Virus record (IMG/VR): IMGVR_UViG_3300045988_146535
Direction: 5' to 3' (one strand)
Origin: a virus
Lineage: Duplodnaviria; Heunggongvirae; Uroviricota; Caudoviricetes
Length of the DNA stretch: 36,473 nucleotides
Below the pieces are notes generated by a model, which was not told the DNA's origin, searched no databases, and worked only from the letters and a program-made list of their open reading frames with translations. This document shows positions 277-26,517 of this stretch, in pieces (the stretch's first letter is position 1; every line of letters begins with the position of its first letter). The position numbers and the translations under genes are program-made.

Positions 277-330
277 GGTAGCTCCCCCTGGCAAAAGCAG
301 GAATGATGCCATTTGCTCGTTATTTCTGCA

Positions 331-356
331 TTTTCATAAACGTTGGTTTGGGAGAA
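331..356. repeat. Left crossover site of the invertible tail-fibre segment (26 bp, imperfect dyad)
   Basis: ttttcataaacgttggtttgggagaa; its reverse complement matches the right site at 2179-2204 in the first 14 positions and about 21 of 26 overall (hand alignment). Confidence 0.6.
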
Positions 357-824
357 GGCTCTGCATTACCTGTTGGTGTCCCTGTTCCGTGGCCTTCAGC
401 CACTCCGCCAACAGGCTGGCTGAAATGCAACGGAGCAGCTTTTTCTGCTGAAGAATACCCGGAACTGGCAAAGGCTTACCCGACAAATAAATTGCCAGAT
501 TTACGTGGTGAGTTTATTCGTGGCTGGGATGACGGGCGTGGTATTGATGCTGGACGTGCTTTATTGAGCCTTCAGGCTGGGATGCTGGAAAAACACCGCC
601 ATATTGTTGTTGCCAATGATGGTTACGACACAAAAGATGAATGGGAACTGGCTACGATTTTCAAAAAAACATACACACAAGGACGGGGACTTGATGCCAC
701 AAATACAGGAGGGAGTCTGATCCCATCACCGACACTTCATTCACGAGGGAGTATCGGTAATACTGGCGGGAGTGAGACCCGTCCACGAAATATTGCATTT
801 AACTTTATCGTGAGGGCTGCATAA
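345..824 (+). CDS. Alternative tail-fibre C-terminal variable segment (silent orientation; no own start, expressed only after inversion)
   Basis: ORF 303-824; from the crossover site it reads NVGLGEGSALPVGVPVPWPSATPPTGWLKCNGAAFSAEEYPELAKAYP, a tail-fibre C-terminus-like sequence. Confidence 0.55.
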   Translation, partial: GLGEGSALPVGVPVPWPSATPPTGWLKCNGAAFSAEEYPELAKAYPTNKLPDLRGEFIRGWDDGRGIDAGRALLSLQAGMLEKHRHIVVANDGYDTKDEWELATIFKKTYTQGRGLDATNTGGSLIPSPTLHSRGSIGNTGGSETRPRNIAFNFIVRAA

Positions 825-1426
825 TGGATAACGCAGTATTAAATAGCGAGTTTATTGCCACGAAGGCGGGGAATATTACCGTCTATAACTACGATGGTGA
901 AACTCGGGAATATATTTCTGCATCAACTGAATATCTTGCAGTGGGTGTCGGTATTCCAGCATATTCCTGTTTAGACGCTCCTGGTACATATAAGGCTGGT
1001 TATACAATTTGCCGTTCTGTAGATTTAAATTCATGGGAATATGTGCCAGACCATCGCGGTGAAATCGTCTATAACACCGAAACGGGAGATGCCAAAGAAA
1101 TCACAGCACCGGGTGATTACCCCGAAAATACAACCACTATCGCCCCATTAACGCCATACGATAAATGGGATGGTGAGAAATGGGTGACCGATACTGAGGC
1201 ACAGCATAGCGCCGCAGTAGACGCGGCAGAAGCACAGCGTCAGTCACTGATTGATGCTGCAATGGCTTCCATCAGTCTGATTCAGCTGAAATTACAGGCC
1301 GGACGGAAGTTGATGCAGGCAGAAACAACCCGGCTTAACGCTGTGCTGGATTACATTGACGCGGTGACGGCAACAAATACCAGCACAGCGCCGGATGTCA
1401 TCTGGCCTGAACTGCCGGAGGCGTAG
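824..1426 (+). CDS. Tail-fibre assembly protein (partner of the silent fibre segment)
   Basis: 200 aa; C-terminus TSTAPDVIWPELPEA resembles the end of the minus-strand Tfa (TSGAPDIEWPTPP); convergent with it. Confidence 0.65.
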   Translation: MDNAVLNSEFIATKAGNITVYNYDGETREYISASTEYLAVGVGIPAYSCLDAPGTYKAGYTICRSVDLNSWEYVPDHRGEIVYNTETGDAKEITAPGDYPENTTTIAPLTPYDKWDGEKWVTDTEAQHSAAVDAAEAQRQSLIDAAMASISLIQLKLQAGRKLMQAETTRLNAVLDYIDAVTATNTSTAPDVIWPELPEA

Positions 1427-1841
1427 GCCATTCAATATCTGGCGCCCCGGAAGTATCGACCAGTTCCAGTGCGTCCAGATAATCCAGCCACAAATTATAT
1501 TGCGCCAGCTCGTCCCCCTTCAGGCGACCAATAGCTGCTTTACCAGGCCATTGCCTACTGTTCATGTATTCGTTGGCATGGTTAATCAATAATTGCCTCT
1601 CTGATTCGGCCTGTTCAATAAGTTCCTCATGTGATGGTGGAGGTATTTCAGCCCATGTGGGAAAACCATTTTCCCCTGCAACTCGGATTTTCCCTTGTGG
1701 CGGTTCCGCCATATATTTTACAGAAATGTCATCAGGAATATCTAATGCATCAGCAGGCCATGTTCCATTTACTTCATAAGTGTTTTTTAAATTAACAGCA
1801 TAAAAAGCATTTTCCGAAGGGGAATAAATATATTGATTCAT
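1398..1841 (-). CDS. Tail-fibre assembly protein (Tfa), expressed orientation
   Basis: 147 aa directly downstream of the tail-fibre gene on the same strand; Tfa-like C-terminus. Confidence 0.7.
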   Translation of the reverse strand: MNQYIYSPSENAFYAVNLKNTYEVNGTWPADALDIPDDISVKYMAEPPQGKIRVAGENGFPTWAEIPPPSHEELIEQAESERQLLINHANEYMNSRQWPGKAAIGRLKGDELAQYNLWLDYLDALELVDTSGAPDIEWPTPPAVQAR

Positions 1842-1842
1842 A

Positions 1843-2481
1843 TTATCTTCCTATTGCGATAATCATAGTTCCATACAAACCATTTCCGGTTGATACTTTT
1901 AAAGTTACTGATGTCCTTGTTGTCGTGTACCCCATAAGTTTAAAGGTCGGAGCAGCCGTTAATGAGCCATCTGACCATAAGGCACTAACAGCTAGTGCGC
2001 CTGAAGGAAATGCAATAGGGAAATTACCTGTAGTTCCGTTAGTGTCCGCCCCATAAACATTCATCGAAAACATTTGGACAATATGACCACTTGGTAACTG
2101 AAACCAGTTTTTGCCAGATGGAAATGCAGACATATCTGGTATCTGATTTTCCCCTGTTCCCACATTCCGTTTTGCCGCTTCTCCCAAACCAAGGTTTTCG
2201 AGAGCCGTTTTCACCGTGCCATCCGATTTGATATCGCCAAACGGATTTTTGCGACTTAACAGCAGCGCACGAAGCGCGGTAAGCAGCTGGTCGTGCCTCT
2301 CCTTCTCCAGGCTGGCACCGGATGCCTCCACCACGCTACAAAGCTCTTCCTGCAACATGTCAAAGTAGTCATCATCCAGATCGGTGGCAGGCGTGCCGGT
2401 CTGGGGGTTGCCACGGGTAAAACCGTTCTTACCCGCGCCGAACTTATCCTTCTGCGCGGTTTTCGTGTCTATGCGATGCAT
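1843..2481 (-). CDS. Side tail-fibre protein (constant N-terminal part outside, variable C-terminal part inside the invertible segment)
   Basis: 212 aa; crossover site falls at residues ~94-101; position after the baseplate genes. Confidence 0.7.
2179..2204. repeat. Right crossover site of the invertible tail-fibre segment (26 bp, imperfect dyad), inside the tail-fibre gene
   Basis: ttctcccaaaccaaggttttcgagag; half-sites TTCTCCCAAACC / GGTTTTCGAGAG around a central AA; overlaps the codons for ENLGLGE. Confidence 0.6.
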
Positions 2482-5078: not shown

Positions 5079-6157
5079 CAGAACGGGTCCTCCTGTACTC
5101 TGGCTTTTTTCTTTTTCCGCGCGCCGGGGGCTTCGGGTTCAGGCAGATAAGCATCAGGTGGGCCGACACGGATTTCCGTCAGGGTGCCATTCTGGTCCTG
5201 AGTAAACGTGACTTCCGAGACAAGCAGTTCGGTATTGTCGAAACCACAGACCGGATCGAAGACAATCACCCGCTGGTTGGGCTGCCACAGCGTACCGTTA
5301 CCCTGTCGCCAGCCCTGCACCACATAGGTGGTTTCATCCGTCCGCGCCGCCCGTTGTCGGGCTTCAAAGTCAGCACGCGCAATACAGCCTGCCCCCGTAG
5401 CCTGCCCTGTCTGCCTGATATACATCGGACGGTAACGGGCAATAAATGCATCCTCTGTGCGGGCCCGCAGCGCGGTGGTGGTGGCCTCACCGAAATCATC
5501 GTCGTTTCCGGCACGCTGCCCCGCCACCTGGTAAACTGAAAACCGCTCCCGGATACTCTTCTCCGTATCACAGGAAAGGATGTTTTCCCCAAGTACCAGC
5601 GCGGTATGTGCCTGCGTTGAGCCAATACCACCAATCACCAGCCTGCCGTGCGGGTCGTCATAAGCCAGCGCCTGCTGCTGACCGAGTATTTTGTTGATCA
5701 CCTCGATCACCGTTTCACCGTGATCAGGCTGGACATCCGGAATAACACCCGACGGCGCATCGCTGTTCACCACCTCAATGCCGAAAGGCGCAGCAAGCGC
5801 CTGCGCAATCTGTACCAGCGATCGTCCGTTAAACTGTGTCGGTTCGGCTGCACAGTCAATCAGGTCAGCAGTCAGACTACGTCCGGCAATACCGGTGCTG
5901 ACCGAACGGGCATCGTAACGAACGGGGGTCGCCTCCACCCAGCCGGTGATCACCAGCTCATCACCAATCAGCACTTCCACTTTTGAACCATTTTTAATGC
6001 GCGGCTGAAGCGTGGTGATACCCTCATCACCCGGCCACTGGCGGGTGATCTCCACGCTGAAATCCCGCGCCAGCCGTTCAATACCGGCACCGATGCGCAC
6101 CGATGTCCAGCCATTCCACTCCCGGCCATTTACCCGTAGCGTGACATTGTCGTTCAT
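5078..6157 (-). CDS. Baseplate hub / tail protein (Mu gpP-like)
   Basis: 359 aa; position after the DNA-circulation gene. Confidence 0.6.
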   Translation of the reverse strand: MNDNVTLRVNGREWNGWTSVRIGAGIERLARDFSVEITRQWPGDEGITTLQPRIKNGSKVEVLIGDELVITGWVEATPVRYDARSVSTGIAGRSLTADLIDCAAEPTQFNGRSLVQIAQALAAPFGIEVVNSDAPSGVIPDVQPDHGETVIEVINKILGQQQALAYDDPHGRLVIGGIGSTQAHTALVLGENILSCDTEKSIRERFSVYQVAGQRAGNDDDFGEATTTALRARTEDAFIARYRPMYIRQTGQATGAGCIARADFEARQRAARTDETTYVVQGWRQGNGTLWQPNQRVIVFDPVCGFDNTELLVSEVTFTQDQNGTLTEIRVGPPDAYLPEPEAPGARKKKKARVQEDPF

Positions 6158-7482
6158 TGCACTGGCACCTTCAGAGGGATCACCGGCACAAAGCCGGGAT
6201 GCGTAATGGCATTACGCCGGATAATGTCCGCGTCACGCGCCGCGTTATCAAACCAGGTCGCCGCCAGCACCAGCGCGGGTAAAACCTCATCCGGTGTGCG
6301 CTGAATGATCCGTGCAGACTGTTCAAGGCGCGTGTTGATATCCGCATTCAGATCTGCTTTCACCCGGCGCAGCGCCAGAAACAGCGCATCGCTGGTTGTA
6401 CGGGACAACTCCTTATCAATTGCCGTATTCAGTGTGTCGCGAATGTCAGTCAGTTCTTCCCACGTCGGCAGGTCAACCGTGTTTTTCACCGCCGGTGCAT
6501 TGTTCAGTGCCGGATGCGTGACGGAAGGCCAGCCAGTGCTCTGCGCGGGTGTTGTTGCCTGCCCCACTGCGGAATTCTGCATCACCGCGGAAGTTGTTGG
6601 CGCAGGCAATCGGGTGACGGCATACGCCGCTTCGCTGATTGCGGTCGTACGAAGGGTGCTGGCAACCACGTTACGCTGCTGCGTCGCCGTGGCGGTGGTT
6701 TTACTGTCCGTTTTCCAGACGCCGCGCGGTTGCAGATCGCTGCCGAGGCTGACACCGGAAAGCGTTTTGATCATGGTGACCAGGTCGCTGGCGTTACCAT
6801 AAAGGCGTTTCCCGGTACGCCACATTTTCTGCACCTGCTCAACGAAATTTTTGCCTGACGATGGCGGCGGCAGAAGTACCGAGATATCCCCCTGCAACAG
6901 CCTGGCGGCATCCGATACGGCAGAATCCACCACTTTCATCGCATCAGAAACATACCCCAGCATTATGCTGGCATTACCGATAACGTCGTTCTGCACGAAA
7001 TCCGCCACACCATCGATACTGAAACCGCTGAAGCTGTCACTGATGCAGTCATCCAGTGCAGAACAGGATGACATCAGCGTCTGCGCCGTCGCCGCACCTG
7101 ATGTGGGGTAAGAGAGTTCTCCTGCTTCGACAAACTTCAGGTCAAAGCGGACAATACGCCCTTCACTTTTCGATGTGCTGACCCGAACTTCCCCGTCAAC
7201 ACAGACTTTCAGCTCACCGTATGTCGGATGGACAAGCGTGCCGGGACCGGGTTTATTCAGCGCGTCAATCAGGCGATCGCGCTGGTCAAAGCAGTCATCT
7301 CCCACCACATAAGCCGTGATGGACGGGCGGAAAGTGACTTTTCCCAGATCTTCGGTATAGGGTTTGTCGCGGTTCGGGTATTCGTGCGTTTCCACACGGC
7401 GACCTGTTCCCGCACTTTCTTCTTCGACCTTAAACGGCACGCCGCGAAATGACGCGTCCTGAAGCCTGTCTTTCCACGTCAT
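6154..7482 (-). CDS. Mu-like DNA circulation protein (tail component)
   Basis: 442 aa; N-terminus MTWKDRLQDASFRGVPFKVEEE...HEYPNRDKPYTEDLG typical of this family; follows the tape measure. Confidence 0.7.
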   Translation of the reverse strand: MTWKDRLQDASFRGVPFKVEEESAGTGRRVETHEYPNRDKPYTEDLGKVTFRPSITAYVVGDDCFDQRDRLIDALNKPGPGTLVHPTYGELKVCVDGEVRVSTSKSEGRIVRFDLKFVEAGELSYPTSGAATAQTLMSSCSALDDCISDSFSGFSIDGVADFVQNDVIGNASIMLGYVSDAMKVVDSAVSDAARLLQGDISVLLPPPSSGKNFVEQVQKMWRTGKRLYGNASDLVTMIKTLSGVSLGSDLQPRGVWKTDSKTTATATQQRNVVASTLRTTAISEAAYAVTRLPAPTTSAVMQNSAVGQATTPAQSTGWPSVTHPALNNAPAVKNTVDLPTWEELTDIRDTLNTAIDKELSRTTSDALFLALRRVKADLNADINTRLEQSARIIQRTPDEVLPALVLAATWFDNAARDADIIRRNAITHPGFVPVIPLKVPVQ

Positions 7483-7502
7483 ATATACTCCGAAAATTAA
7501 AA

Positions 7503-7530
7503 AGCCACCTATTAGAAGGTGGCCTTGTAA
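7503..7530 (-). terminator. Intrinsic terminator for the moron gene
   Basis: Minus-strand hairpin GCCACCT-tctaat-AGGTGGC followed by TTTTTAATTTT. Confidence 0.5.
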
Positions 7531-7543
7531 TGAATTTTATTAA

Positions 7544-8074
7544 TTAGCGAGTCAGAAACAACGAATCTTTATACTTTTGCTGTTGTTCATTTAAATACTT
7601 AGCTGTTTCATCGCTGGCAAATGGAAATATTACCGTATTTTTAGGCATGGTAATTTCTTTTTTGTCCAGCGTCAGAGTAAACATAGGAACATACTGAGCA
7701 GAGTAACGCACCGCAGAAACGAGCTCTAGTTTAGACTCTTCAACAACACTTAAATTATCCAGGCTAACTTTCTCTTCATCTTTTTTCTTTGACGCATTTA
7801 AAGTTTTTATTACTTTATTTAATTTCTCCTGAAAATCCTCCTTAAAGTTTTCAGGATTGCCGTCGACAACAAGAATCTGTTCACCCTGATTATCTGGAAA
7901 AATAATCTTTGCACTTATCAATTTATTTTCTTTATAAACATCACCAAGTTTTATGGCTCCTCCAGATAACTGAATAATATGTTCATCTTTAAAGGAGATG
8001 TTGCCAGAGATTATGAGAGATGAAAAAATAGCCGCTGCTCCAAGAATTACACTTGCTGTGATATAGCCTTTCAT
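7544..8074 (-). CDS. Secreted/exported hypothetical protein (moron in the tail module)
   Basis: 176 aa; N-terminal signal-peptide-like MKGYITASVILGAAAIFSSLIISG; visibly AT-rich; own promoter-like sequence (TTGTAA-16-TAGAAT) upstream and terminator downstream. Confidence 0.65.
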   Translation of the reverse strand: MKGYITASVILGAAAIFSSLIISGNISFKDEHIIQLSGGAIKLGDVYKENKLISAKIIFPDNQGEQILVVDGNPENFKEDFQEKLNKVIKTLNASKKKDEEKVSLDNLSVVEESKLELVSAVRYSAQYVPMFTLTLDKKEITMPKNTVIFPFASDETAKYLNEQQQKYKDSLFLTR

Positions 8075-8165
8075 TTTTCGCCTATTAACATTTTTCTAAA
8101 TGTGCATTAATTCTATCACTCTATTTATGACTTACAACCAGCAATACCTGTGAGGGGAATCCTGG

Positions 8166-9998
8166 CTACCAAAATCGGGTATAGCCAACATCGTGATTTA
8201 TATCAATGCCACTGGAGCGTGTTTCCGTAACCCGCATACCTGATGGCATATTTATAAATGATACCTTGATCTCACCATCAACTTTTGGCGCGGTAGCTTT
8301 ATTAATCATGAAAGGATTCGGGCCTGTGGCACCGGAGGCGTTGTTTGCCTGAGCCGGATCCACCTCCGGATAAGGAGTGTATCCCCGTGGCGGTATTCCC
8401 GTCCCATAAGCATCATAAGCACCCGCGCCCCACTGCGCCGAGTTAATGGCATCGACCGTGTCACCGGAACTGTCGGTAAACCACTCAATAATTGGCTTCA
8501 GCTTATCCCACATATCCTGAAACCACTTAACAACCGGTCCCCAGTTATTGATCACCATCCCCAGCGGCGACCAGGCAAAAACCTTCTTCAGAAGTTCCCA
8601 GCCAGCCTCAAAATAAGGACTAATGGTTTCCCAGAGCTTCTTGAAATAAGGTCCGACAACATCCCAGTTAGTGATAATTAATCCCGCAGCCAGGGCTATC
8701 GCCGTCGCAATCATGCCAATCGGCGTCATCGACATAATCCTGCTGACAATACTGATGGCACCGCCAACGCCCATCAATCCCAGTTTCAGAATCGCAAGAC
8801 CGGCAGCAAGCCCGACGACGCCGCGAATAACCCGGGGATTTTCATCCGCAAACTTCGTGAATTTTTCCCCCAACTCCCCCAGCCATTGCGTGATATTTTT
8901 GGCGTCACCAGAAAATGCGCCGCCAATAGCCGCAAGGCCGTTAGTTGCGGTCCCCGTCATTGCCTCCCACAGGTTGGACAGCGTACCAAGCTGGGCCTGA
9001 ACACGTTTATTCAGGCTGGCCTGTTTATTCATCTTCTGCTGGATCTGATCGTAGCCATCCTTTCCTTTATCGATTAGTGCATTGACCACCTGAAGGGTTT
9101 CGGCATCATCACCAAATATTGCCTTAAGTACACCTGTTCGCTTAACGTCGGTCAGTTTTCGCAGCTTTGCCAGTTGCCTGAACATGTTATCAAGACCGCC
9201 AAAACTCCCTTTGCCGTCAGTAAAATCGAGCTGTACCCCGAGTTTCTGGCGGGCCATGACTTTATTGACGTCCCTGATTTTCTTAACGCTTAATCCGGAC
9301 TGGATAACTTTTCGCAGGGCATTACCTGCCGACTCCCCGTTCATCCCCATCTGATCCATCATGACGCTGATGGGGGCAAGGCTCTGTGCAGCCTGAAGAC
9401 CGTCCTTGTTCACCATCTTCAGAACAGAACTGGTTTTAGTGAAGAAGGACAACATGTTGGTATCGTCAACGCCCAGATAAAACGCCTTCTGGATAGTGTC
9501 GAACAGCCCCATCATGTCTTCTGACGCCGTTCCGGTAGCATCCTGCATCTTTGCAGCAAACTCAGCAGCCGCTTCCGGTGTTTTTTTCAGTTGTACCGCA
9601 AGATAAGCTGTCGCTTTACCCACACCACCCAGGATGTTTTCTGCCGGGATCCCCTGACGCACCAGCATCTGCATCATGTTCTGGAAATCAGCCGTTGTAC
9701 CGGGTAGCTGGTTACCCAGGCCAATAGCCAGTTTATTGATGTCCTGAAAGCTCTTTCCAACCTCGCCGTTCGCATCCATCATGGCGACTTTCAGCCCGGT
9801 GGCGGCGTTTTCCTGATCGGCATAAGATTTCAGGGAAAGCGTCAGACCCGCTGCCAGTCCGCCACCAAGCGCCAGCCCACCCTGTGACGCTTCTTCCGCC
9901 TGGCGTTTAAATCCCCGGATTTTCTTTTGCATTTTCGACAGCGCTGGAGAAAGCCTGTCGACACCGGTGATCAACGCCTTAAGCTCAAATTCAGCCAT
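8166..9998 (-). CDS. Tail tape measure protein
   Basis: 610 aa, Gly/Ala-rich with hydrophobic stretches; directly downstream of the frameshifted chaperone pair. Confidence 0.75.
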   Translation of the reverse strand: MAEFELKALITGVDRLSPALSKMQKKIRGFKRQAEEASQGGLALGGGLAAGLTLSLKSYADQENAATGLKVAMMDANGEVGKSFQDINKLAIGLGNQLPGTTADFQNMMQMLVRQGIPAENILGGVGKATAYLAVQLKKTPEAAAEFAAKMQDATGTASEDMMGLFDTIQKAFYLGVDDTNMLSFFTKTSSVLKMVNKDGLQAAQSLAPISVMMDQMGMNGESAGNALRKVIQSGLSVKKIRDVNKVMARQKLGVQLDFTDGKGSFGGLDNMFRQLAKLRKLTDVKRTGVLKAIFGDDAETLQVVNALIDKGKDGYDQIQQKMNKQASLNKRVQAQLGTLSNLWEAMTGTATNGLAAIGGAFSGDAKNITQWLGELGEKFTKFADENPRVIRGVVGLAAGLAILKLGLMGVGGAISIVSRIMSMTPIGMIATAIALAAGLIITNWDVVGPYFKKLWETISPYFEAGWELLKKVFAWSPLGMVINNWGPVVKWFQDMWDKLKPIIEWFTDSSGDTVDAINSAQWGAGAYDAYGTGIPPRGYTPYPEVDPAQANNASGATGPNPFMINKATAPKVDGEIKVSFINMPSGMRVTETRSSGIDINHDVGYTRFW

Positions 9999-20077: not shown

Positions 20078-20428
20078 TCACTTCAGCCGTTCACGGGCCG
20101 TCTTCGCCTTATGACACGGCCAGCACAGGCTCTGCAGATTGCTGTCGGCATCTGTGCCGCCATGCGCTTTAGGGATGATGTGGTCAACGGTTTTCGCCTC
20201 ACGTACCACACCAGCACGCAGACATAACTGACACAGTCCTTTATCACGCTTCAGCACGCACGCGCGGATAACATCCCACTTCGAACCGTAGCCGCGCTGG
20301 TGACGGGATTGTCCAGGTTTGTACTGCTTCCAGCCTTCGCTTTTGTGGCTTTCGCAGTAGCCTGACGGGTCTGTGGTTGTAGAGCGGCAGCCGCGAACAC
20401 GGCAGGCTTTTGGTGTTCGTGGTGGCAT
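20078..20428 (-). CDS. HNH endonuclease (packaging-associated)
   Basis: 116 aa with Cys clusters and HNH motif (VDHIIPKAHGG...N...LC..CH); sits just upstream of the terminase genes. Confidence 0.8.
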   Translation of the reverse strand: MPPRTPKACRVRGCRSTTTDPSGYCESHKSEGWKQYKPGQSRHQRGYGSKWDVIRACVLKRDKGLCQLCLRAGVVREAKTVDHIIPKAHGGTDADSNLQSLCWPCHKAKTARERLK

Positions 20429-20557
20429 GATAGGCTCCCCTCGTAAATGAGGTGATTCACAAAATGAAACAAAAAAAGCACTGGTAGTACCAGCATCCTA
20501 AATTACAGATTCCATAACATGCTCAATGCTGCTAATGGCAAGAAAGGATGTTTTTAA

Positions 20558-20770
20558 ATGACAAGCGATAATCTGGACTCCAAGCCCACAATTGAAGATG
20601 TTGATTTCAAGCATTTGATCTGCGTCGCAGGAGGAATCATCGAGGATCTAAAAGGCCCATTTATATTCAAGGCTCCAGAAAATATTAGGCGATTACTTAA
20701 TCATAAGGGAGTGAATGAAATAAGTAATCTCTCTCAAAAATTTAATGCAGATTCTCCATCTTGCTATTAG
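20558..20770 (+). CDS. Hypothetical small protein (AT-rich island)
   Basis: 70 aa; AGGA-like ribosome-binding site upstream; convergent with the 197-aa membrane protein gene; stem-loop at 20776-20803 after the stop. Confidence 0.4.
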   Translation: MTSDNLDSKPTIEDVDFKHLICVAGGIIEDLKGPFIFKAPENIRRLLNHKGVNEISNLSQKFNADSPSCY

Positions 20771-20846
20771 AGTTCAGCAGCAGGCACTCAGTGAATGCCT
20801 GCTGTAACGACTACTCCAATAATAATGGATGCTCTATGGATACATA

Positions 20847-21440
20847 CTAAAATATGGATGTTAAATAATTGCTAAGTCTTTTTGCATTCTTACAGAATGC
20901 CAAAGCATCTTCCTGAGTACATAAGAGCTTTCCTTGGGATATAGGCTTAATAGACTCTCCTGTTTTTTCATAGAGCTTAACAATGTCACTAGAAATTTTG
21001 TTTGCAGATTGGACATTTTTCAAGGCAGCGATACCTGAAGCCCGCCCTAAAGATGTCCCGTTGATCTCAATCCCCTTTTTAGATGCAAGCGTTATAGCGG
21101 TTAACTCCAATTCGCGCCAAGCTGAAAGTACAGCAACATTAGGCTGAGTACTAGCAAGACTCTCAAAAATATTGAAATTCTCAATGAGTTGAGTCGGCAG
21201 GACAGGATTTGTTCCAGGTAAATTTTTAATAACCTCTATACTTTTAGATTCTATTTCAAACATTTCTTTTTTAAATTTAATCTCATAGTCACCTAGCTTA
21301 ACTGTATTAAGACGACCTAAAACCATTATTATTTCTTTTTTTAAAGTAAAAAAGACAATCAAACAAGCAAGAACAATAAATAAAACATTGCCTTCTTTAA
21401 GAAGCATCTCTATCCAGTAAAAAAAAGTATAGTCCGTCAT
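20847..21440 (-). CDS. Membrane-anchored hypothetical protein (moron downstream of the lysis cassette)
   Basis: 197 aa; N-terminal transmembrane segment LFIVLACLIVFFTL; visibly AT-rich. Confidence 0.6.
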   Translation of the reverse strand: MTDYTFFYWIEMLLKEGNVLFIVLACLIVFFTLKKEIIMVLGRLNTVKLGDYEIKFKKEMFEIESKSIEVIKNLPGTNPVLPTQLIENFNIFESLASTQPNVAVLSAWRELELTAITLASKKGIEINGTSLGRASGIAALKNVQSANKISSDIVKLYEKTGESIKPISQGKLLCTQEDALAFCKNAKRLSNYLTSIF

Positions 21441-21634
21441 TTTCAGTTCTCAAATAGAAATAGTTCTCTCAGTATACGTATATTGAACTCTGCTATCACT
21501 TAGTTTATACAACGTTATGCTGGCCACACGCTCGTAGTTGACGTGCATGTGGCTACTCGCTATTTTAGGTATTTGGGACATCTTCATTAATGCTGAACAG
21601 GCACTTCTTGCTGCGGTCTTTCCACTTTACTGCT

Positions 21635-22632: not shown

Positions 22633-22959
22633 TTACTCCTTCGAGCTACCAAATTTGTTACCGATTACTCGCATTGCAGCCCCACGAATAGCATCGACAC
22701 CGATCAGCCCAACGCCGCCACCAATGGCAACAGAAAGCGATTTAGGCCATCCGACATACTCAAGAGCGGATGCAAAAGTCAGCGTCAGAGCACCACAGAG
22801 CAAAATCTCGAGCGTTTTTCGTTTCCAGCCACCACCACTGCCAAAATAGGCAATACGTAAACCAGCCATAACGATCGACATAATCACTGCGCCCAGCGGT
22901 GTGTCTCCACGCCACCAGCTCTGGACCAACTCCAGCCAGGTATTTGGGTTATGAGGCAT
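22633..22959 (-). CDS. Holin
   Basis: 108 aa with hydrophobic transmembrane segments, immediately upstream of the endolysin. Confidence 0.7.
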   Translation of the reverse strand: MPHNPNTWLELVQSWWRGDTPLGAVIMSIVMAGLRIAYFGSGGGWKRKTLEILLCGALTLTFASALEYVGWPKSLSVAIGGGVGLIGVDAIRGAAMRVIGNKFGSSKE

Positions 22960-23178
22960 TTGTAGTTATCTCTCACCTCGCCGATACAGGAGGTGCAAAT
23001 TGAGGGAGTACCACGAACCGCAAATCAGAAGCGGAAACGTAAAAGAAGCCGAGCCAATGGATAAGTACTAGATAGAACAAGCCCAACGAATACCAAGGCC
23101 CAGAAACGACAAAACCCGCTCAATGGCGGGTTTAAGCTGTGTGGCGACGTAACCACTCTTAACACGATACAATACTTT

Positions 23179-23207
23179 TTGCGTACGCGTTAGCATTTTA
23201 GTAATAT
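23179..23207 (+). promoter_or_regulatory. Candidate sigma-70 promoter for the accessory operon
   Basis: TTGCGT (23179-23184), 17-bp spacer, TAATAT (23202-23207), about 30 bp upstream of the ATG at 23241. Confidence 0.3.
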
Positions 23208-23240
23208 TCTGAAGTACGTTTATCTATTGAATCTATACAA

Positions 23241-24350
23241 ATGAAGAAAATCGAAAAACTGTTCACTGAAGTAATACGGAAGTTGCGCCATAAGAAATTT
23301 ATGCGCTCGATAGCTAGTAAAAGAAGCACAACAGAAAGAAAGCTAAAACGTAATGGAAGTTTAAAAAAAATCGCTCCAGAGAAAATACTTGCTCCAACCA
23401 TACTTGATATTTACAAGGCGGAATATCATGAGAATGTGGTTAATTTTATAGAAAAAATAGAAAACAAAGCAAAGACAGGAAATAAAAAGATATATATATG
23501 TTTTAGAAATACAATTCATATATCGGCTGCTGCTGGCTTATTTCTTCTTGCAAAACTAGAGACGTTAAAAAGCAATCATAGGGACTTAAAATATATCGTA
23601 GCCAAACCGCCAATCAAAACTTCATCAAAAGGAGAACAGCACGTTGTTGATTCTGTTTTGAACAGAATCGGAATCTATGCAGCATTAGGTGTTAAATCAA
23701 GAGAAATGAGAGAAACTCCGTCTGTAAAATGTTGGGAGGTAATTCGTGGCGAACTAGTAGATTCGGAAATTGCAGGAAACTTATTAGAAACAATCACAGA
23801 AAAAATGGGTACCGATTATACAGATTTATATCGTCCCTTGATAGAAGCCATGTCTAATTCAGTAGAACATGCATATCGAGACGATTTATATGACTCAAAT
23901 AAAAATAACAATAAAAATAAATGGTGGTGCTTTGCTGCAATTATGAACAACAAGTCAATTATGAACAACAAGTTAATATTACTAATTTGTGACCTCGGTG
24001 TAGGTATACCTAAAACGTTAAAACTTACTCAAGGTGAAAAGGTTCTTGCAAAGCTAACCGAGTTCCTTGGTAAGCCATTAGTCCTTGATTCAGAACATAT
24101 AAAAGCCTCATTGCAGGTTAAACGAACCCGAACAAAGCTTGGATACAGAGGGAAAGGAGGAACTGATTTACAATCTATCATAGAAAACTTTGAAAATGCA
24201 CAATTACGAATTATATCCAACAAAGGAAATTACAGATATACTCATCGTAAGAAAGCAAGACCAGAGTTAATGTGGGATGCCAAACATTCCATCAACGGTA
24301 CTATAGTTGAATGGAGCGTACCGCTACCAAATGAAGGAGACTCTCAATGA
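23241..24350 (+). CDS. GHKL/HATPase_c-type ATPase (RsbW-like serine-kinase fold) with an uncharacterised N-terminal region
   Basis: 369 aa; N-box-like EAMSNSVEHAY, G1-like ICDLGVGIP (DxGxG) and G2-like GYRGKGGTDL; visibly AT-rich; opposite strand to the flanking late genes. Confidence 0.6.
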   Translation: MKKIEKLFTEVIRKLRHKKFMRSIASKRSTTERKLKRNGSLKKIAPEKILAPTILDIYKAEYHENVVNFIEKIENKAKTGNKKIYICFRNTIHISAAAGLFLLAKLETLKSNHRDLKYIVAKPPIKTSSKGEQHVVDSVLNRIGIYAALGVKSREMRETPSVKCWEVIRGELVDSEIAGNLLETITEKMGTDYTDLYRPLIEAMSNSVEHAYRDDLYDSNKNNNKNKWWCFAAIMNNKSIMNNKLILLICDLGVGIPKTLKLTQGEKVLAKLTEFLGKPLVLDSEHIKASLQVKRTRTKLGYRGKGGTDLQSIIENFENAQLRIISNKGNYRYTHRKKARPELMWDAKHSINGTIVEWSVPLPNEGDSQ

Positions 24351-24664
24351 AAACCTTATTTATCAAGGACTTTTCAAGATTCCCGGGGCCTAGATACGAA
24401 AGGTTAGGTGAAAACAGTGGCGAAAAATTCCGCGATTTATTTTTGATACCAGCACTTAACGAAAATCCAGACTTAGTCATTGACTTTGATGGTGTTTTTG
24501 GCTATGGCTCATCTTTCCTTGAGGAGGCCTTTGGAGGTTTGGTGCGTAAAGGGATAGAGCGCGAAAAATTGGAGAAGCTTAAGAAGAATCTCAAAAGTAA
24601 AGATCAATACATTATTGAGGAAGTAATTTCATATATTGATGATGCTCTGCGAGATCTAAAATAA
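24347..24664 (+). CDS. STAS-like small protein (DUF4325-like, anti-sigma-antagonist fold)
   Basis: 105 aa; VIDFDGVFGYGSSFLEEAFGGL matches the DUF4325 core pattern as I recall it; start overlaps the stop of the upstream gene. Confidence 0.5.
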   Translation: MKTLFIKDFSRFPGPRYERLGENSGEKFRDLFLIPALNENPDLVIDFDGVFGYGSSFLEEAFGGLVRKGIEREKLEKLKKNLKSKDQYIIEEVISYIDDALRDLK

Positions 24665-25125
24665 TGGACACTGACGTTACTCAGAATTTATGGACAATGC
24701 CTGCAACGATTATAGCGATTGTTGGCATTTTTTTAACAATATTAGGCTGGATAGTTACAGCAATACTTACTCGCATTAACAATGCGAAGAATTTAAAAAA
24801 ACTAGAAATAAATAGACTTATTGATGAGTTATTTTATAAATTAGATTTTATTTATAGCGAAATGCTTGAATTGCTGCGAGACGATAAAAAAGACAAACAA
24901 GTCCTATATTACATTTTTACATCATCAGTAAGGCATGTTGAGTTTATTTGCGAGCGAATTGAACTATTAGACAACAAAAAAAACAAAGACAATGGATTAA
25001 TATCTGAATTAAGACAAGCATGTACTAACGATGCGAAATATGAAAAAGAAAAAATTGGAACAACATTACATGAAATCCAAAGCGCTAATGAAAAACTCAA
25101 AAACAAATATCTGAAATCATTTTAA
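24664..25125 (+). CDS. Membrane protein (one N-terminal transmembrane helix, charged coiled-coil-like C-terminal region)
   Basis: 153 aa; transmembrane segment ATIIAIVGIFLTILGWIVTAILT; ATGG overlap with the upstream stop. Confidence 0.55.
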   Translation: MDTDVTQNLWTMPATIIAIVGIFLTILGWIVTAILTRINNAKNLKKLEINRLIDELFYKLDFIYSEMLELLRDDKKDKQVLYYIFTSSVRHVEFICERIELLDNKKNKDNGLISELRQACTNDAKYEKEKIGTTLHEIQSANEKLKNKYLKSF

Positions 25126-25131
25126 TTAAAA

Positions 25132-25157
25132 AAGAACCGGCTAAGCCGCCGGTTCTT
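25132..25157. terminator. Bidirectional intrinsic terminator between the accessory operon and the Q-like gene
   Basis: AAAAAA-GAACCGGC-taagcc-GCCGGTTC-TTTTTT; A-run and T-run flank a GC-rich stem. Confidence 0.7.
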
Positions 25158-25159
25158 TT

Positions 25160-25519
25160 TTAATTTATTACACAAAGGCAGCCTTCAATAAATCCAATGG
25201 CCATTTGTAATTCTTTTCTAATTGTACCATCAGAATACTTCCTCTTTTTAGCAATAGCACGAAGTGAGATGCCAACAACAAAGTGAGCAATTATCAGCTC
25301 ATACTCTTCCGGCTTATATTTACGCAACCTAGCCACACAACTATCTATCATGATGCCTTCATCATCATCACACTGGAGACGTGACTTTTTACCGTGTGGT
25401 AAAAGTCCCTTGAAACCAGCCGCTATCGGCTGCCAGTCCACACCACTGTTATCTGCTGCCGCCCATGCTCCCCAGCGGTCCAAAACTTCATACATATCAC
25501 GCATCAACCTTCTCCACAA
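25160..25519 (-). CDS. Putative late-gene antiterminator (Q-like)
   Basis: 119 aa; position between the replication/accessory early genes and the lysis cassette; HTH-like LRKYKPEEYELIIAHFVVGISLRAIAKK. Confidence 0.45.
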   Translation of the reverse strand: MWRRLMRDMYEVLDRWGAWAAADNSGVDWQPIAAGFKGLLPHGKKSRLQCDDDEGIMIDSCVARLRKYKPEEYELIIAHFVVGISLRAIAKKRKYSDGTIRKELQMAIGFIEGCLCVIN

Positions 25520-25521
25520 AA

Positions 25522-26517
25522 TCAGGCCAGCACACCAATTGCCAACGCACGATCGATAAAACGAAATATCAGCTCCAGCTGGGAGCCATACATCTCTTCA
25601 AATGCCACGGTATCCGCATGCAGCTCGTCGTGATGCTTTCTGCACAAAGGCAACACAAAGAGGTCATGCGCTTTTGTACCCATTCCACCCTGGCCGTGAC
25701 CTATCAGGTGGTGGGGATCATCAGCAGGCTTTCCACAACATGCACACGGCTGTGTCTTAACCCAGCGCGTGTACTTTTCATTAACCCAGCGGCGACGTTT
25801 GGGGCGTAACATAAAAGACTCCGGCGACTCCGGATCCACTTTCAGCGTCAGCACCTTTTTCGCTTTATCCTGGATGATGCTGGTGGCAGGAACCGAAGGC
25901 ACAAAGTCACTTTCCCGGGTGACAGACGGCACAACAGGCTTCGGTAATCTCAGTGCCTTACGGGCTGCACTTTCCGGTAAGGCATCCGCCAGATCATTAC
26001 GAATCAGCCACCAGCACAGTTCCGGCATTGTCACAACGTGACTATCATCAAAACCGAGATCCCGACGCACAACAGACAACACCCAGCGGGCACAGTTATC
26101 CGTTGCCATTGATTCCAGCCGTTCCGTGAACTGATCGCGCAGCTGGTTATCGCAGTGCCAGCACAGACGGATTGCGCCCGGCGCGTGTCGCATTGTGGCC
26201 ATGTTCTCGCTGTGCCAGTCGGAATGAGGCCACTGACAGCCCTTTTCACGAAGTAACCAGCTTTCAAGACATTCCACGCCACCAGCACGACGGATCACTG
26301 CCTCATTGCGGAACACGGCCCGAACGGCAGGATCATCCGCCAGCGGTTGTGATGCCGCCGGAACGGCACCACTGGCGAAAGATGAATAACGTTCCGGCTC
26401 AGGCTCCAGCAGGACACGCCCCTGCATAAACAGGGGCATCAGCTCTGAACCTGGTCTGAACAATACGATCCCCATACGCGGGGCAATTTCAGGGGTCAGT
26501 AGTGCTCTCACGGTCAC
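25522..26517 (-). CDS. DUF968-like protein with C-terminal HNH-like Cys/His motif
   Basis: 331 aa; C-terminal CACCGKPADDPHHLIGHG...CRKHHDELH. Confidence 0.5.
   Translation of the reverse strand: MTVRALLTPEIAPRMGIVLFRPGSELMPLFMQGRVLLEPEPERYSSFASGAVPAASQPLADDPAVRAVFRNEAVIRRAGGVECLESWLLREKGCQWPHSDWHSENMATMRHAPGAIRLCWHCDNQLRDQFTERLESMATDNCARWVLSVVRRDLGFDDSHVVTMPELCWWLIRNDLADALPESAARKALRLPKPVVPSVTRESDFVPSVPATSIIQDKAKKVLTLKVDPESPESFMLRPKRRRWVNEKYTRWVKTQPCACCGKPADDPHHLIGHGQGGMGTKAHDLFVLPLCRKHHDELHADTVAFEEMYGSQLELIFRFIDRALAIGVLA

What the first reader, a model, noticed from the sequence alone, without database searches (positions are those of the whole stretch)
7483..8165. Self-contained secreted-protein moron inside the tail gene block
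An AT-rich 176-aa gene with a signal-peptide-like N-terminus is wedged between the DNA-circulation and tape-measure genes. It has its own sigma-70-like promoter (TTGTAA-16-TAGAAT) and a rho-independent terminator, the typical signature of a lysogenic-conversion moron expressed from the prophage. An exported periplasmic or surface protein could act in superinfection exclusion or host fitness.
Basis: partly seen in the sequence, partly recalled or inferred. Interest (0 to 1): 0.45.

Follow-up and report, generated by a model that had tools for sequence, protein, structure and literature searches.

The report
Prophage moron encoding an exported envelope protein
This is a real but fairly ordinary accessory gene cassette ("moron") in the tail genes of an SfV-like E. 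coli prophage; it encodes an uncharacterised protein exported to the cell envelope, and it sits in a variable slot that holds other unrelated, mostly envelope-targeted genes in related prophages.

Summary
ORF 7544..8074 (- strand, 176 aa, GC 0.34 against 0.52-0.57 in the flanks) lies between the tape-measure gene and the DNA-circulation/baseplate-hub gene of an SfV-like prophage. It has a promoter-like site and a strong terminator hairpin.

- **Accessory, not structural.** SfV, SfI and SfII and most related E. coli prophages have an empty slot. About 174 of 5,426 complete E. coli genomes carry this cassette.
- **A variable slot.** Four unrelated cassettes occupy the same slot elsewhere, and three of them also encode exported, anchored or lipidated proteins.
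- **A real, conserved gene.** dN/dS is about 0.03-0.19. There are 79 cluster representatives in a 1.8-billion-protein library, with a conserved N-terminal hydrophobic helix and no Pfam, NCBIfam, PADLOC or PDB match. A confident AlphaFold model (pLDDT 90.8) has no significant solved-structure neighbour.
- **Same slot in other genera.** Homologues sit there in Leclercia and Edwardsiella elements. One Lelliottia copy survives alone in a prophage remnant.

Function is inferred, not shown. The most likely role is an envelope-level block to phage entry, by analogy with the HK97 gp15 moron, which is not homologous. The promoter match alone is no better than chance. This is a new member of a known kind.

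The parts
7544..8074 (-). Cargo gene: 176-aa protein of an uncharacterised family (PHROG 5485), with an N-terminal hydrophobic helix followed by an alpha/beta domain of about 145 aa
   Evidence: ORF and translation. phrog_5485 E = 6e-108, unknown function. No Pfam, NCBIfam or PADLOC hit. dN/dS 0.03-0.19. AF2 model pLDDT 90.8.
8006..8062 (-). Codons 5-23: hydrophobic export or anchor segment (ITASVILGAAAIFSSLIIS)
   Evidence: KD19 = 2.11. Modelled as helix 2-23. Conservation 2.03 bits per column, equal to the folded core. The N-flank is more positive than the C-flank in 45 of 59 family members.
7547..7990 (-). Codons 29-176: predicted periplasmic domain (b33-36, b39-42, b46-58, b69-72, a74-93, b114-126, b132-143, a149-171), carrying the conserved motif G39-x-[IV]-x-L43-G44-x-V-Y47-x-E49 and Y124
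8110..8137 (-). Sigma-70-like promoter candidate TTGTAA-16-TAGAAT with a TG extension, 35 nt upstream of the ATG
   Evidence: 9 of 12 matches, and the number of such sites in the region equals the chance expectation. Promoter-like sites lie in the equivalent spacer of L092 (11 of 12) and L013 (9 of 12), but none was found in L009 or L015.
8081..8083 (-). Weak Shine-Dalgarno (AGG), 6 nt before the ATG
   Evidence: Read directly from the sequence.
7493..7526 (-). Rho-independent terminator: AAGGCCACC-TTCTAA-TAGGTGGCTTT followed by a T-run
   Evidence: z = -5.05. A hairpin plus T-run sits at the same place in the seven loci with downstream sequence, with different stem sequences. The same holds for the other co-oriented cargo types and the empty slot.
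7497..8172 (.). Approximate extent of the cassette relative to the empty slot of SfII. Homology resumes in the T-run/CGGAGT.TAT just before the DNA-circulation ATG, and in the last codons of the tape-measure gene
   Evidence: Junction comparison. No flanking direct or inverted repeats.
8166..9998 (-). Upstream neighbour: tail tape-measure protein (610 aa)
   Evidence: PF10145, phrog_28/17727.
6154..7482 (-). Downstream neighbour: DNA-circulation / baseplate-hub protein (442 aa, Mu gp43-like)
   Evidence: PF07157, phrog_184.
25160..25519 (-). Phage antiterminator Q, the likely reason late transcription can read through the slot terminator
   Evidence: PF06530, E = 1e-46. Read-through itself is inferred from established lambdoid biology.

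Best explanation
The feature is a moron: an accessory cassette of about 670 bp (promoter candidate, one gene, terminator) in a polymorphic slot between the tape-measure and DNA-circulation/hub genes of an SfV-like prophage, which has an HK97-like head and a Mu-like contractile tail.

Shown here:
- It is dispensable for the phage.
- It is compositionally foreign.
- It is under purifying selection.
- It encodes a protein with a conserved N-terminal hydrophobic helix.

Inferred:
- The helix directs the protein into or across the inner membrane, N-in and C-out, so that the alpha/beta domain of about 145 aa faces the periplasm, most likely still anchored.
- The gene is transcribed from its own promoter in the lysogen. 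It is probably also transcribed by Q-antiterminated read-through late in infection.
- At the envelope the protein most likely blocks entry of incoming phages, for example by interfering with the tape-measure, hub or tube tip of contractile-tail phages as they cross the periplasm and inner membrane. This would protect the lysogen, and possibly the progeny, as the non-homologous HK97 gp15 moron next to its tape-measure gene does.
For: Dispensable and variable:
- SfV, SfI and SfII and most related E. coli prophages have the same flanks (94-95% identity) but only about 50 bp in the slot.
- In an even sample of 49 loci with both flanks, 28 were empty, 10 had this cargo and 11 had other cargo.
- Genome counts: 174 for this cargo, 84 for the secreted 170-aa protein, 54 for the lipoprotein, 54 or more for the TM-anchored OB-fold protein, and 24 for bPH_1.
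- The cargos are mutually unrelated. Four of the five types carry an N-terminal export, anchor or lipobox signal.

Foreign composition and transcription signals:
- GC is 0.34-0.38 against 0.46-0.57 in the flanks, in every locus checked.
- The terminator has z = -5.05 and is present in the seven loci with downstream sequence.
- The promoter candidate is, with a stronger one in L092.
- Q antiterminator is present.

A real, selected gene:
- dN/dS is 0.03-0.19. Among E. coli alleles there are 14 synonymous and 9 non-synonymous segregating sites.
- There are 79 representatives, all about 170-190 aa.

Export:
- Hydrophobic maximum 2.11 and TM-like helix 2-23.
- The segment is as conserved as the core, and 45 of 59 members obey positive-inside for an N-in orientation.
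- UniRef names a Leclercia homologue 'Secreted protein'.
- The only structural neighbour is a phage 'lipoprotein'.

Selected independently of the virion:
- In Lelliottia, the gene with its upstream spacer and terminator survives next to icd, beside only a 31-aa remnant of the tape-measure C-terminus and no other tail gene.

Analogy:
- HK97 gp15 is a co-oriented moron next to the tape-measure gene, with a terminator. It is an inner-membrane protein that blocks genome injection (PMC3594210).
Against: - There is no functional evidence of any kind: no expression data, no phenotype, no homology to any known exclusion or defence protein, and nothing in the searchable literature.
- The promoter match is at chance level, and L009 and L015 show no promoter by the same scan.
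- The gene is co-oriented with the late operon, so it may be mainly a late-expressed gene.
- Whether the N-terminus is cleaved could not be decided. Distant family members show AXA-like motifs typical of cleaved signal peptides.
- 'Envelope-located' fits many roles other than phage exclusion.
- None of 50,697 deposited phage genomes carries a homologue, so it has never been examined in a cultured phage.
Confidence: 0.55

Rival explanations
1. It is a host-fitness or virulence moron. The exported protein changes an envelope property of the lysogen that is unrelated to phages, such as serum or stress resistance, adhesion or colonisation, as lambda Bor and Lom do.
For: The moron anatomy and envelope targeting are the same as in the best explanation. 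The cassette is retained in a decayed prophage in Lelliottia. Carriers come from many hosts, including human, poultry, pig, dog and wastewater. PMC3594210 lists such roles for morons.
Against: There is no similarity to Bor, Lom or any known virulence family. In SfV-like elements of three or four genera the family stays at this one tail-gene slot next to the tape measure, which suits a phage-directed role better. Carriers show no obvious pathotype enrichment, though this was not tested statistically.
Confidence: 0.2
2. It is a lytic-cycle accessory. The gene is expressed mainly by read-through with the late tail operon and acts in the periplasm of the dying cell. It might stop progeny from adsorbing to or injecting into lysing cells and debris, as the T5 Llp lipoprotein does, or it might tune lysis.
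For: The gene is co-oriented with the tail operon, and Q antiterminator is present. The promoter is weak or undetected in several orthologous loci. The family diverges roughly in step with its structural neighbours across genera.
Against: The Lelliottia remnant keeps the gene without any late operon, with a promoter-like site 20 nt upstream of the ATG. The OB-fold cargo in the same slot is on the opposite strand and so must be transcribed independently. The AT-rich spacer of 60-90 nt upstream is kept in all loci.
Confidence: 0.17
3. It is a structural or assembly component of the tail, for example a minor tail protein or chaperone sitting between the tape-measure and hub genes.
For: It lies inside the tail block on the same strand. 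Homologues sit at the same place in Leclercia, Edwardsiella and a metagenomic relative.
Against: It is absent from the infectious phages SfV, SfI and SfII and from most related prophages. Unrelated genes replace it in others, including in the isolated phage SKA5. It has an N-terminal export signal. Distant members lie outside any tail operon. It has no PHROG structural annotation.
Confidence: 0.03
4. It is a chance ORF in AT-rich spacer DNA and not a gene.
For: It has low GC and no Pfam family.
Against: There are 79 family representatives with full-length alignments. dN/dS is 0.03-0.19. The AF2 model has pLDDT 90.8.
Confidence: 0.01

Closest known systems
HK97 gp15 moron (Juhala et al. 2000; Cumby et al. 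2012, reviewed in PMC3594210)
   Same: Both are single-gene cassettes inside the tail operon, immediately next to the tape-measure gene and co-oriented with it. Both are followed by a hairpin terminator just before the next gene, are absent from close relatives, and encode a protein with an N-terminal transmembrane helix.
   Different: There is no sequence similarity (BLASTP E = 18). gp15 is 62 aa with essentially only the TM helix and a short tail, whereas this protein has an additional folded domain of about 145 aa. gp15 sits before the tape-measure gene of a siphovirus, and this gene sits after that of a contractile-tail phage. gp15's exclusion activity is demonstrated, and nothing is demonstrated here.
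Membrane-anchored or lipoprotein superinfection-exclusion proteins (lactococcal Sie2009, S. thermophilus Ltp, P22 SieA, T5 Llp, phi80/N15 Cor). This comparison rests on my own knowledge plus PMC3594210 and the abstracts of PMC3952083 and PMC10883804.
   Same: These are prophage-borne and envelope-located. Several consist of an N-terminal anchor plus an extracytoplasmic domain of similar size. They act on DNA entry or on the receptor.
   Different: No sequence homology was detected to any PHROG family annotated with a function, or to any PADLOC defence family. Structural comparison gave no match among solved structures.
Other cargos of the same slot in SfV-like E. coli prophages: secreted 170-aa protein (phage SKA5, phrog_8976), 225-aa lipoprotein (phrog_1353), TM-anchored OB-fold protein (PF12869), bPH_1 protein (PF08000)
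   Same: They occupy the same insertion point, have low GC (0.31-0.42), and carry their own terminators (the co-oriented ones) or convergent transcription (OB-fold). Most are envelope-targeted.
   Different: They are unrelated in sequence (hhalign probabilities <= 1.7%). One (bPH_1) has no export signal, and one type is on the opposite strand.
The 'Q-to-lysis' moron region of SfIV (PMC3851460)
   Same: It is in the same phage group, with low GC and flanking transcription signals, and its authors called it a moron. The window has its own AT-rich island at that position (23100-25200).
   Different: It is a different slot with different genes. The tape-measure/DNA-circulation slot is not mentioned in that paper's moron passages.

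Membership tests
Moron (as defined in PMC3594210 after Juhala et al. 2000) | Extra DNA at a position where closely related phages have none | tested here: met
   SfV, SfI and SfII and most related E. coli prophages span 1,281 bp where the window spans 1,901 bp. The empty-slot sequence was read.
Moron (as defined in PMC3594210 after Juhala et al. 2000) | Base composition different from the neighbouring genes | tested here: met
   GC 0.34 against 0.52-0.57.
Moron (as defined in PMC3594210 after Juhala et al. 2000) | Own terminator | tested here: met
   Hairpin 7526..7501 plus T-run, z = -5.05, present in the loci with downstream sequence. A hairpin is also present in the empty slot.
Moron (as defined in PMC3594210 after Juhala et al. 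2000) | Own promoter | tested here: inconclusive
   A 9-of-12 match with TG extension is well placed, but the count equals the shuffle expectation. Equivalent sites are found in L092 and L013 and not in L009 or L015.
Moron (as defined in PMC3594210 after Juhala et al. 2000) | Expressed from the repressed prophage | not testable with these tools
   This needs RNA-seq or 5'-RACE on a lysogen.
HK97 gp15 family | Sequence homology to gp15 | tested here: not met
   BLASTP E = 18.
Known anti-phage defence or exclusion protein families (PADLOC-DB, PHROGs with a functional annotation) | Profile match to a described family | tested here: not met
   PADLOC gave 0 hits. PHROGs matched only the unknown-function families 5485 and 34391.
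Superinfection-exclusion protein (functional class) | Blocks adsorption or DNA entry of incoming phage when expressed alone | not testable with these tools
   This needs plating, adsorption and injection assays.
Sec-exported or membrane-anchored protein | Short basic N-region followed by a hydrophobic stretch | tested here: met
   K2 followed by 26 uncharged residues, KD19 = 2.11. The stretch is helical in the AF2 model and conserved in 59 homologues.
Sec-exported or membrane-anchored protein | Signal-peptidase cleavage site (cleaved, soluble) versus uncleaved anchor | tested here: inconclusive
   Several weak -3/-1 candidates exist, for example after G24. High conservation and length of the segment favour an anchor. 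No SignalP or DeepTMHMM was available.
Tail structural or assembly protein | Conserved in all relatives that share the tail module | tested here: not met
   Absent from most related loci, including infectious phages.

The most novel reading that the evidence does not exclude
The junction between the tape-measure and hub genes of SfV-like contractile-tail prophages may be a dedicated hotspot for envelope-acting anti-phage cassettes. On this reading, the 176-aa family would be a previously unrecognised class of inner-membrane-anchored, periplasm-facing injection blockers. Its fold has no solved relative. It would act on the tape-measure, hub or tube tip of incoming myophages, and it would be useful enough to be kept after the rest of the prophage has decayed, as in Lelliottia.
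Probability: 0.25. Interest if true: 0.6.

Novelty: new member of a known kind. Interest (0 to 1): 0.38.

Why it matters
Morons are where temperate phages keep genes that change their hosts, and most remain unassigned. This work defines one well-bounded, common cassette present in about 3% of complete E. coli genomes. Natural 'empty' and 'alternative cargo' controls are available in otherwise near-identical prophages. The slot's cargos are mostly envelope proteins, and the family has a confident but unmatched predicted fold. Together these give a short, testable list of candidate entry-blocking or envelope-modifying proteins for contractile-tail temperate phages, a group for which few exclusion proteins are known. 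If the function turns out to be unrelated to phages, the finding is simply one more hypothetical moron.

Tried and rejected
Searches with no informative result:
- Pfam, NCBIfam and PADLOC scans of the protein and of 59 homologues gave no family.
- PDB sequence searches with two profiles gave nothing below E = 0.6.
- tblastn against 50,697 phage genomes gave no hit.
- Rfam on 7300..8400 gave only sub-threshold leader-like hits caused by the terminator hairpin.
- A repeat search for transposon-like or att-like boundaries found none.
- hhalign of the family against the other slot cargos showed them to be unrelated.
- Literature searches for this slot or gene found nothing specific.

- The search for related loci with the deep alignment failed because no stretch was conserved enough. 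With the shallow alignment it returned mostly identical E. coli copies.

Interpretations considered and dropped:
- The weak phrog_15137 'endonuclease' hit (E = 0.01) is not significant.
- The 35-64 kb 'plasmid' records carrying the gene cannot be taken as proof of excision. They may be assembly artefacts.
- I considered 'free horizontal shuffling of the cassette among E. coli prophages'. Cargo-bearing loci have flanks 97.6-100% identical to the window, while empty loci are 94-95% identical. Linkage with the flanks, meaning descent or long recombination tracts, is therefore equally possible.

Full report
**1. What is there**

The window is an SfV-like E. coli prophage.
- It has an HK97-type head module, a Mu-type contractile tail, a lambda-type holin, endolysin and spanin, a Q antiterminator and an integrase. 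Most genes are on the - strand.
- The closest sequenced phages over the region are SKA5, SfV, SfI, SfII and vB_EcoM-689R6, at 94-95% identity in the flanks.

The finding's ORF is real: 7544..8074 (-), 176 aa.
- It lies between the tape-measure gene (8166..9998, PF10145) and the DNA-circulation/baseplate-hub gene (6154..7482, PF07157, phrog_184).
- The 683-bp slot has GC 0.34 against 0.52-0.57 on either side.

**2. Transcription signals**

TTGTAA-16-TAGAAT, with a TG extension, lies at 8137..8110 (-), 35 nt upstream of the ATG. However, the scan finds as many such sites in this 3-kb stretch as in shuffled sequence (4 against 3.8 +/- 2.2). The promoter is therefore plausible by position only.

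In the diverged orthologous loci the results are mixed:
- L092 has a much better site in the same spacer (TTGTCA-16-TATAAT, 11 of 12).
- L013 has a 9-of-12 site.
- L009 and L015 have none by this criterion.

The terminator is solid.
- It has a 10-bp stem plus T-run, -17 kcal/mol, z = -5.05.
- Each of the seven loci with downstream sequence has a hairpin plus T-run at the same place, with a different stem sequence.

The window encodes a Q antiterminator (PF06530). From established lambdoid biology this would let late transcription pass such terminators. That step is inferred.

**3. It is accessory, and the slot is polymorphic**

Among 5,426 complete E. coli genomes, about 1,100 contain one or both flanks. 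In an even sample down the ranking, 49 loci had both flanks:
- 28 were empty (span 1,281 bp against 1,901 bp);
- 10 carried this cassette;
- 5 carried an 'OB-fold protein';
- 3 carried a 225-aa hypothetical protein;
- 2 carried a different gene of about 170 aa;
- 1 carried a 'PH domain-containing protein'.

Cargo-only searches give 174 genomes for this cassette (at least 99% identical in 174 of 181 records). They give 84 for the SKA5-type gene, 54 for the 225-aa gene, 54 or more for the OB-fold gene and 24 for the bPH_1 gene.

All co-oriented cargos are inserted between the last codons of the tape-measure gene and a terminator hairpin. The ~20 nt before the DNA-circulation ATG (T-run...CGGAGTTTAT) are shared. 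No direct or inverted repeats flank the cassette.

The cargos are unrelated to each other, but four of the five types are envelope-targeted:
- this protein;
- a protein with a classical signal peptide (SKA5);
- a lipoprotein with the lipobox LLGGC;
- a TM-anchored PF12869 OB-fold protein encoded on the opposite strand.

Only the bPH_1 protein lacks an export signal.

**4. The protein**

It is a real, selected gene.
- dN/dS is 0.03-0.19 wherever dS is measurable.
- E. coli alleles show 14 synonymous and 9 non-synonymous segregating sites.

The family is small but genuine.
- There are 25 clusters in the word-indexed search.
- There are 79 representatives at 50% identity in the exhaustive HMM search, nearly all 165-195 aa and aligned end to end.
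- No member hits a Pfam family convincingly. There is no NCBIfam, PADLOC or PDB sequence match.
- PHROGs has the family as phrog_5485, function unknown.

With the 59-sequence alignment, AlphaFold gives a confident model (pLDDT 90.8, pTM 0.75).
- It has an N-terminal helix at residues 2-23, then a beta-hairpin, and a sheet packed against two long helices.
- The only significant BFVD neighbour is a 144-aa 'lipoprotein' of Pseudomonas phage ventosus (E = 3e-6, TM 0.55/0.65).

The N-terminal hydrophobic segment looks more like an anchor than a cleaved signal peptide.
- It is as conserved (2.03 bits per column) as the beta core (1.96-2.29) and more conserved than the helices (1.2-1.5).
- 45 of 59 members have the more positive flank on the N side.
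- I therefore favour an uncleaved N-in/C-out anchor with a periplasmic domain.
- Some distant members show AXA-like motifs, and no formal predictor was available, so cleavage remains open.

**5. Where the relatives are**

- In Leclercia (53% identity), a Citrobacter MAG (58%), Edwardsiella (41%) and several viral contigs (55-60%), the homologue follows a tape-measure gene. Where the contig continues, a DNA-circulation gene follows the homologue. The Citrobacter contig ends inside the cargo gene.
- A 34%-identical metagenomic member also sits directly upstream of a DNA-circulation homologue.
- Low GC (0.35-0.38) persists in all of them. AT-richness here is therefore a stable property, not proof of recent transfer.
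- In Lelliottia amnigena the gene lies next to icd with only a 31-aa remnant of the tape-measure C-terminus upstream and no other tail gene. Its spacer, a promoter-like site and the terminator are retained. In other words, the moron outlived its prophage.
- More distant members occur in other contexts: next to gluconate dehydrogenase genes, next to a Sel1-repeat gene, and near an unrelated tape-measure-like gene on the opposite strand.
- No deposited phage genome encodes a homologue.

**6. Mechanism**

Shown: the cassette is a dispensable, foreign-composition, terminator-bounded unit that encodes a conserved protein with an export or anchor signal.

Inferred:
- The protein has a periplasm-facing location.
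- It is expressed in the lysogen.
- It acts at the envelope.

I commit to entry exclusion of incoming phage as the most likely role. The reasons are:
- the precedent of the HK97 gp15 moron next to its tape-measure gene (PMC3594210);
- the envelope bias of the slot's cargos;
- the persistent linkage of this family to the tape-measure/hub junction;
- its retention in a prophage remnant.

The moron and envelope-protein part is very likely (about 0.9). The exclusion function is much less so (about 0.3-0.35).

Rivals are a phage-unrelated envelope fitness factor (0.2), a late-expressed periplasmic accessory such as a debris or re-infection blocker (0.17), a structural tail protein (0.03, effectively refuted) and a spurious ORF (0.01, refuted).

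**7. Comparison and novelty**

The cassette meets the tested criteria for a moron, except that the promoter is inconclusive and expression is untested. It is not a member of the gp15 family or of any described exclusion or defence family. It works, at most, like them.

It is a new member of a known kind. The gene family and this particular hotspot appear undescribed in the searchable literature, but the phenomenon is textbook. Interest is moderate: 0.38.

Noticed in passing
window 23100-25200 (+ strand ORFs 23241..24350, 24347..24664, 24664..25125): A second AT-rich island (GC 0.30-0.39) holds three + strand genes set against the - strand phage genes, between the holin (22633..22959) and the Q antiterminator (25160..25519), with the DUF968 gene (25522..26517) just beyond Q. 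The middle gene has a DUF4325 STAS-like domain. The others are unknown-function PHROGs with no PADLOC hit. It looks like a candidate defence or accessory operon in the 'Q-to-lysis' moron region described for SfIV (PMC3851460). A related element carries different cargo there (a 'nucleoid-associated protein' plus a hypothetical, L107).
   Followed up: partly
window 20400-21600 (ORF 20847..21440, - strand): A third AT-rich island (GC about 0.36) carries a 197-aa ORF (phrog_30030, unknown function, no Pfam or PADLOC hit) downstream of the Rz-like spanin gene. It is probably another moron.
   Followed up: partly
window 303..2481: A tail-collar-domain gene and a Caudo_TAP tail-fibre assembly gene on the + strand (303..824, 824..1426) face a second assembly-like ORF and a tail-fibre C-terminal gene on the - strand (1398..1841, 1843..2481). 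This is the layout of an invertible tail-fibre host-range switch. A related record annotates pinE next to the equivalent genes (L107).
   Followed up: no
L001 (SfII) 893..931, and the empty slots of SfV-like prophages: Even the empty slot has a rho-independent terminator hairpin (CCCACTCCGGTGGG plus T-run) between the tape-measure and DNA-circulation genes, inside the late operon. The SfII record extends the DNA-circulation ORF over it. It may be the scar or landing pad of past cassettes, or a Q-dependent regulatory stop.
   Followed up: partly
L013 7650..8600 (Lelliottia amnigena chromosome, next to icd): This is a prophage remnant reduced to the last ~93 nt of a tape-measure gene (its stop codon lost) plus the intact cargo gene with spacer and terminator. 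The icd 3' end is a known phage attachment region.
   Followed up: partly
L009 10013..11808 (Leclercia prophage): Two extra genes (503 aa and 94 aa, no Pfam hits on record) sit between the DNA-circulation gene and the gpP-like baseplate gene. They have no counterpart in the window, where those two genes abut. This may be another variable position in the tail block.
   Followed up: no
window 8166..8195 and the equivalent ends in L001-L008: The last few codons of the tape-measure gene differ with the cargo type (...YTRFW*, ...YTRFGR*, ...YTHIGR*, ...RFGMGG*, ...ELEWEG*). The upstream recombination junction of the cassettes therefore lies inside the end of the tape-measure ORF.
   Followed up: partly
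PLSDB records CP088862.1 (35.4 kb), NZ_CP081716.1 (37.7 kb), NZ_CP148394.1 (19.1 kb): Phage-sized circular 'plasmid' records carry this prophage segment, including the cargo gene. In NZ_CP081716.1 the gene appears disrupted (66% apparent identity, and a 104-aa fragment, P0020). They may be excised phage genomes or assembly artefacts.
   Followed up: no
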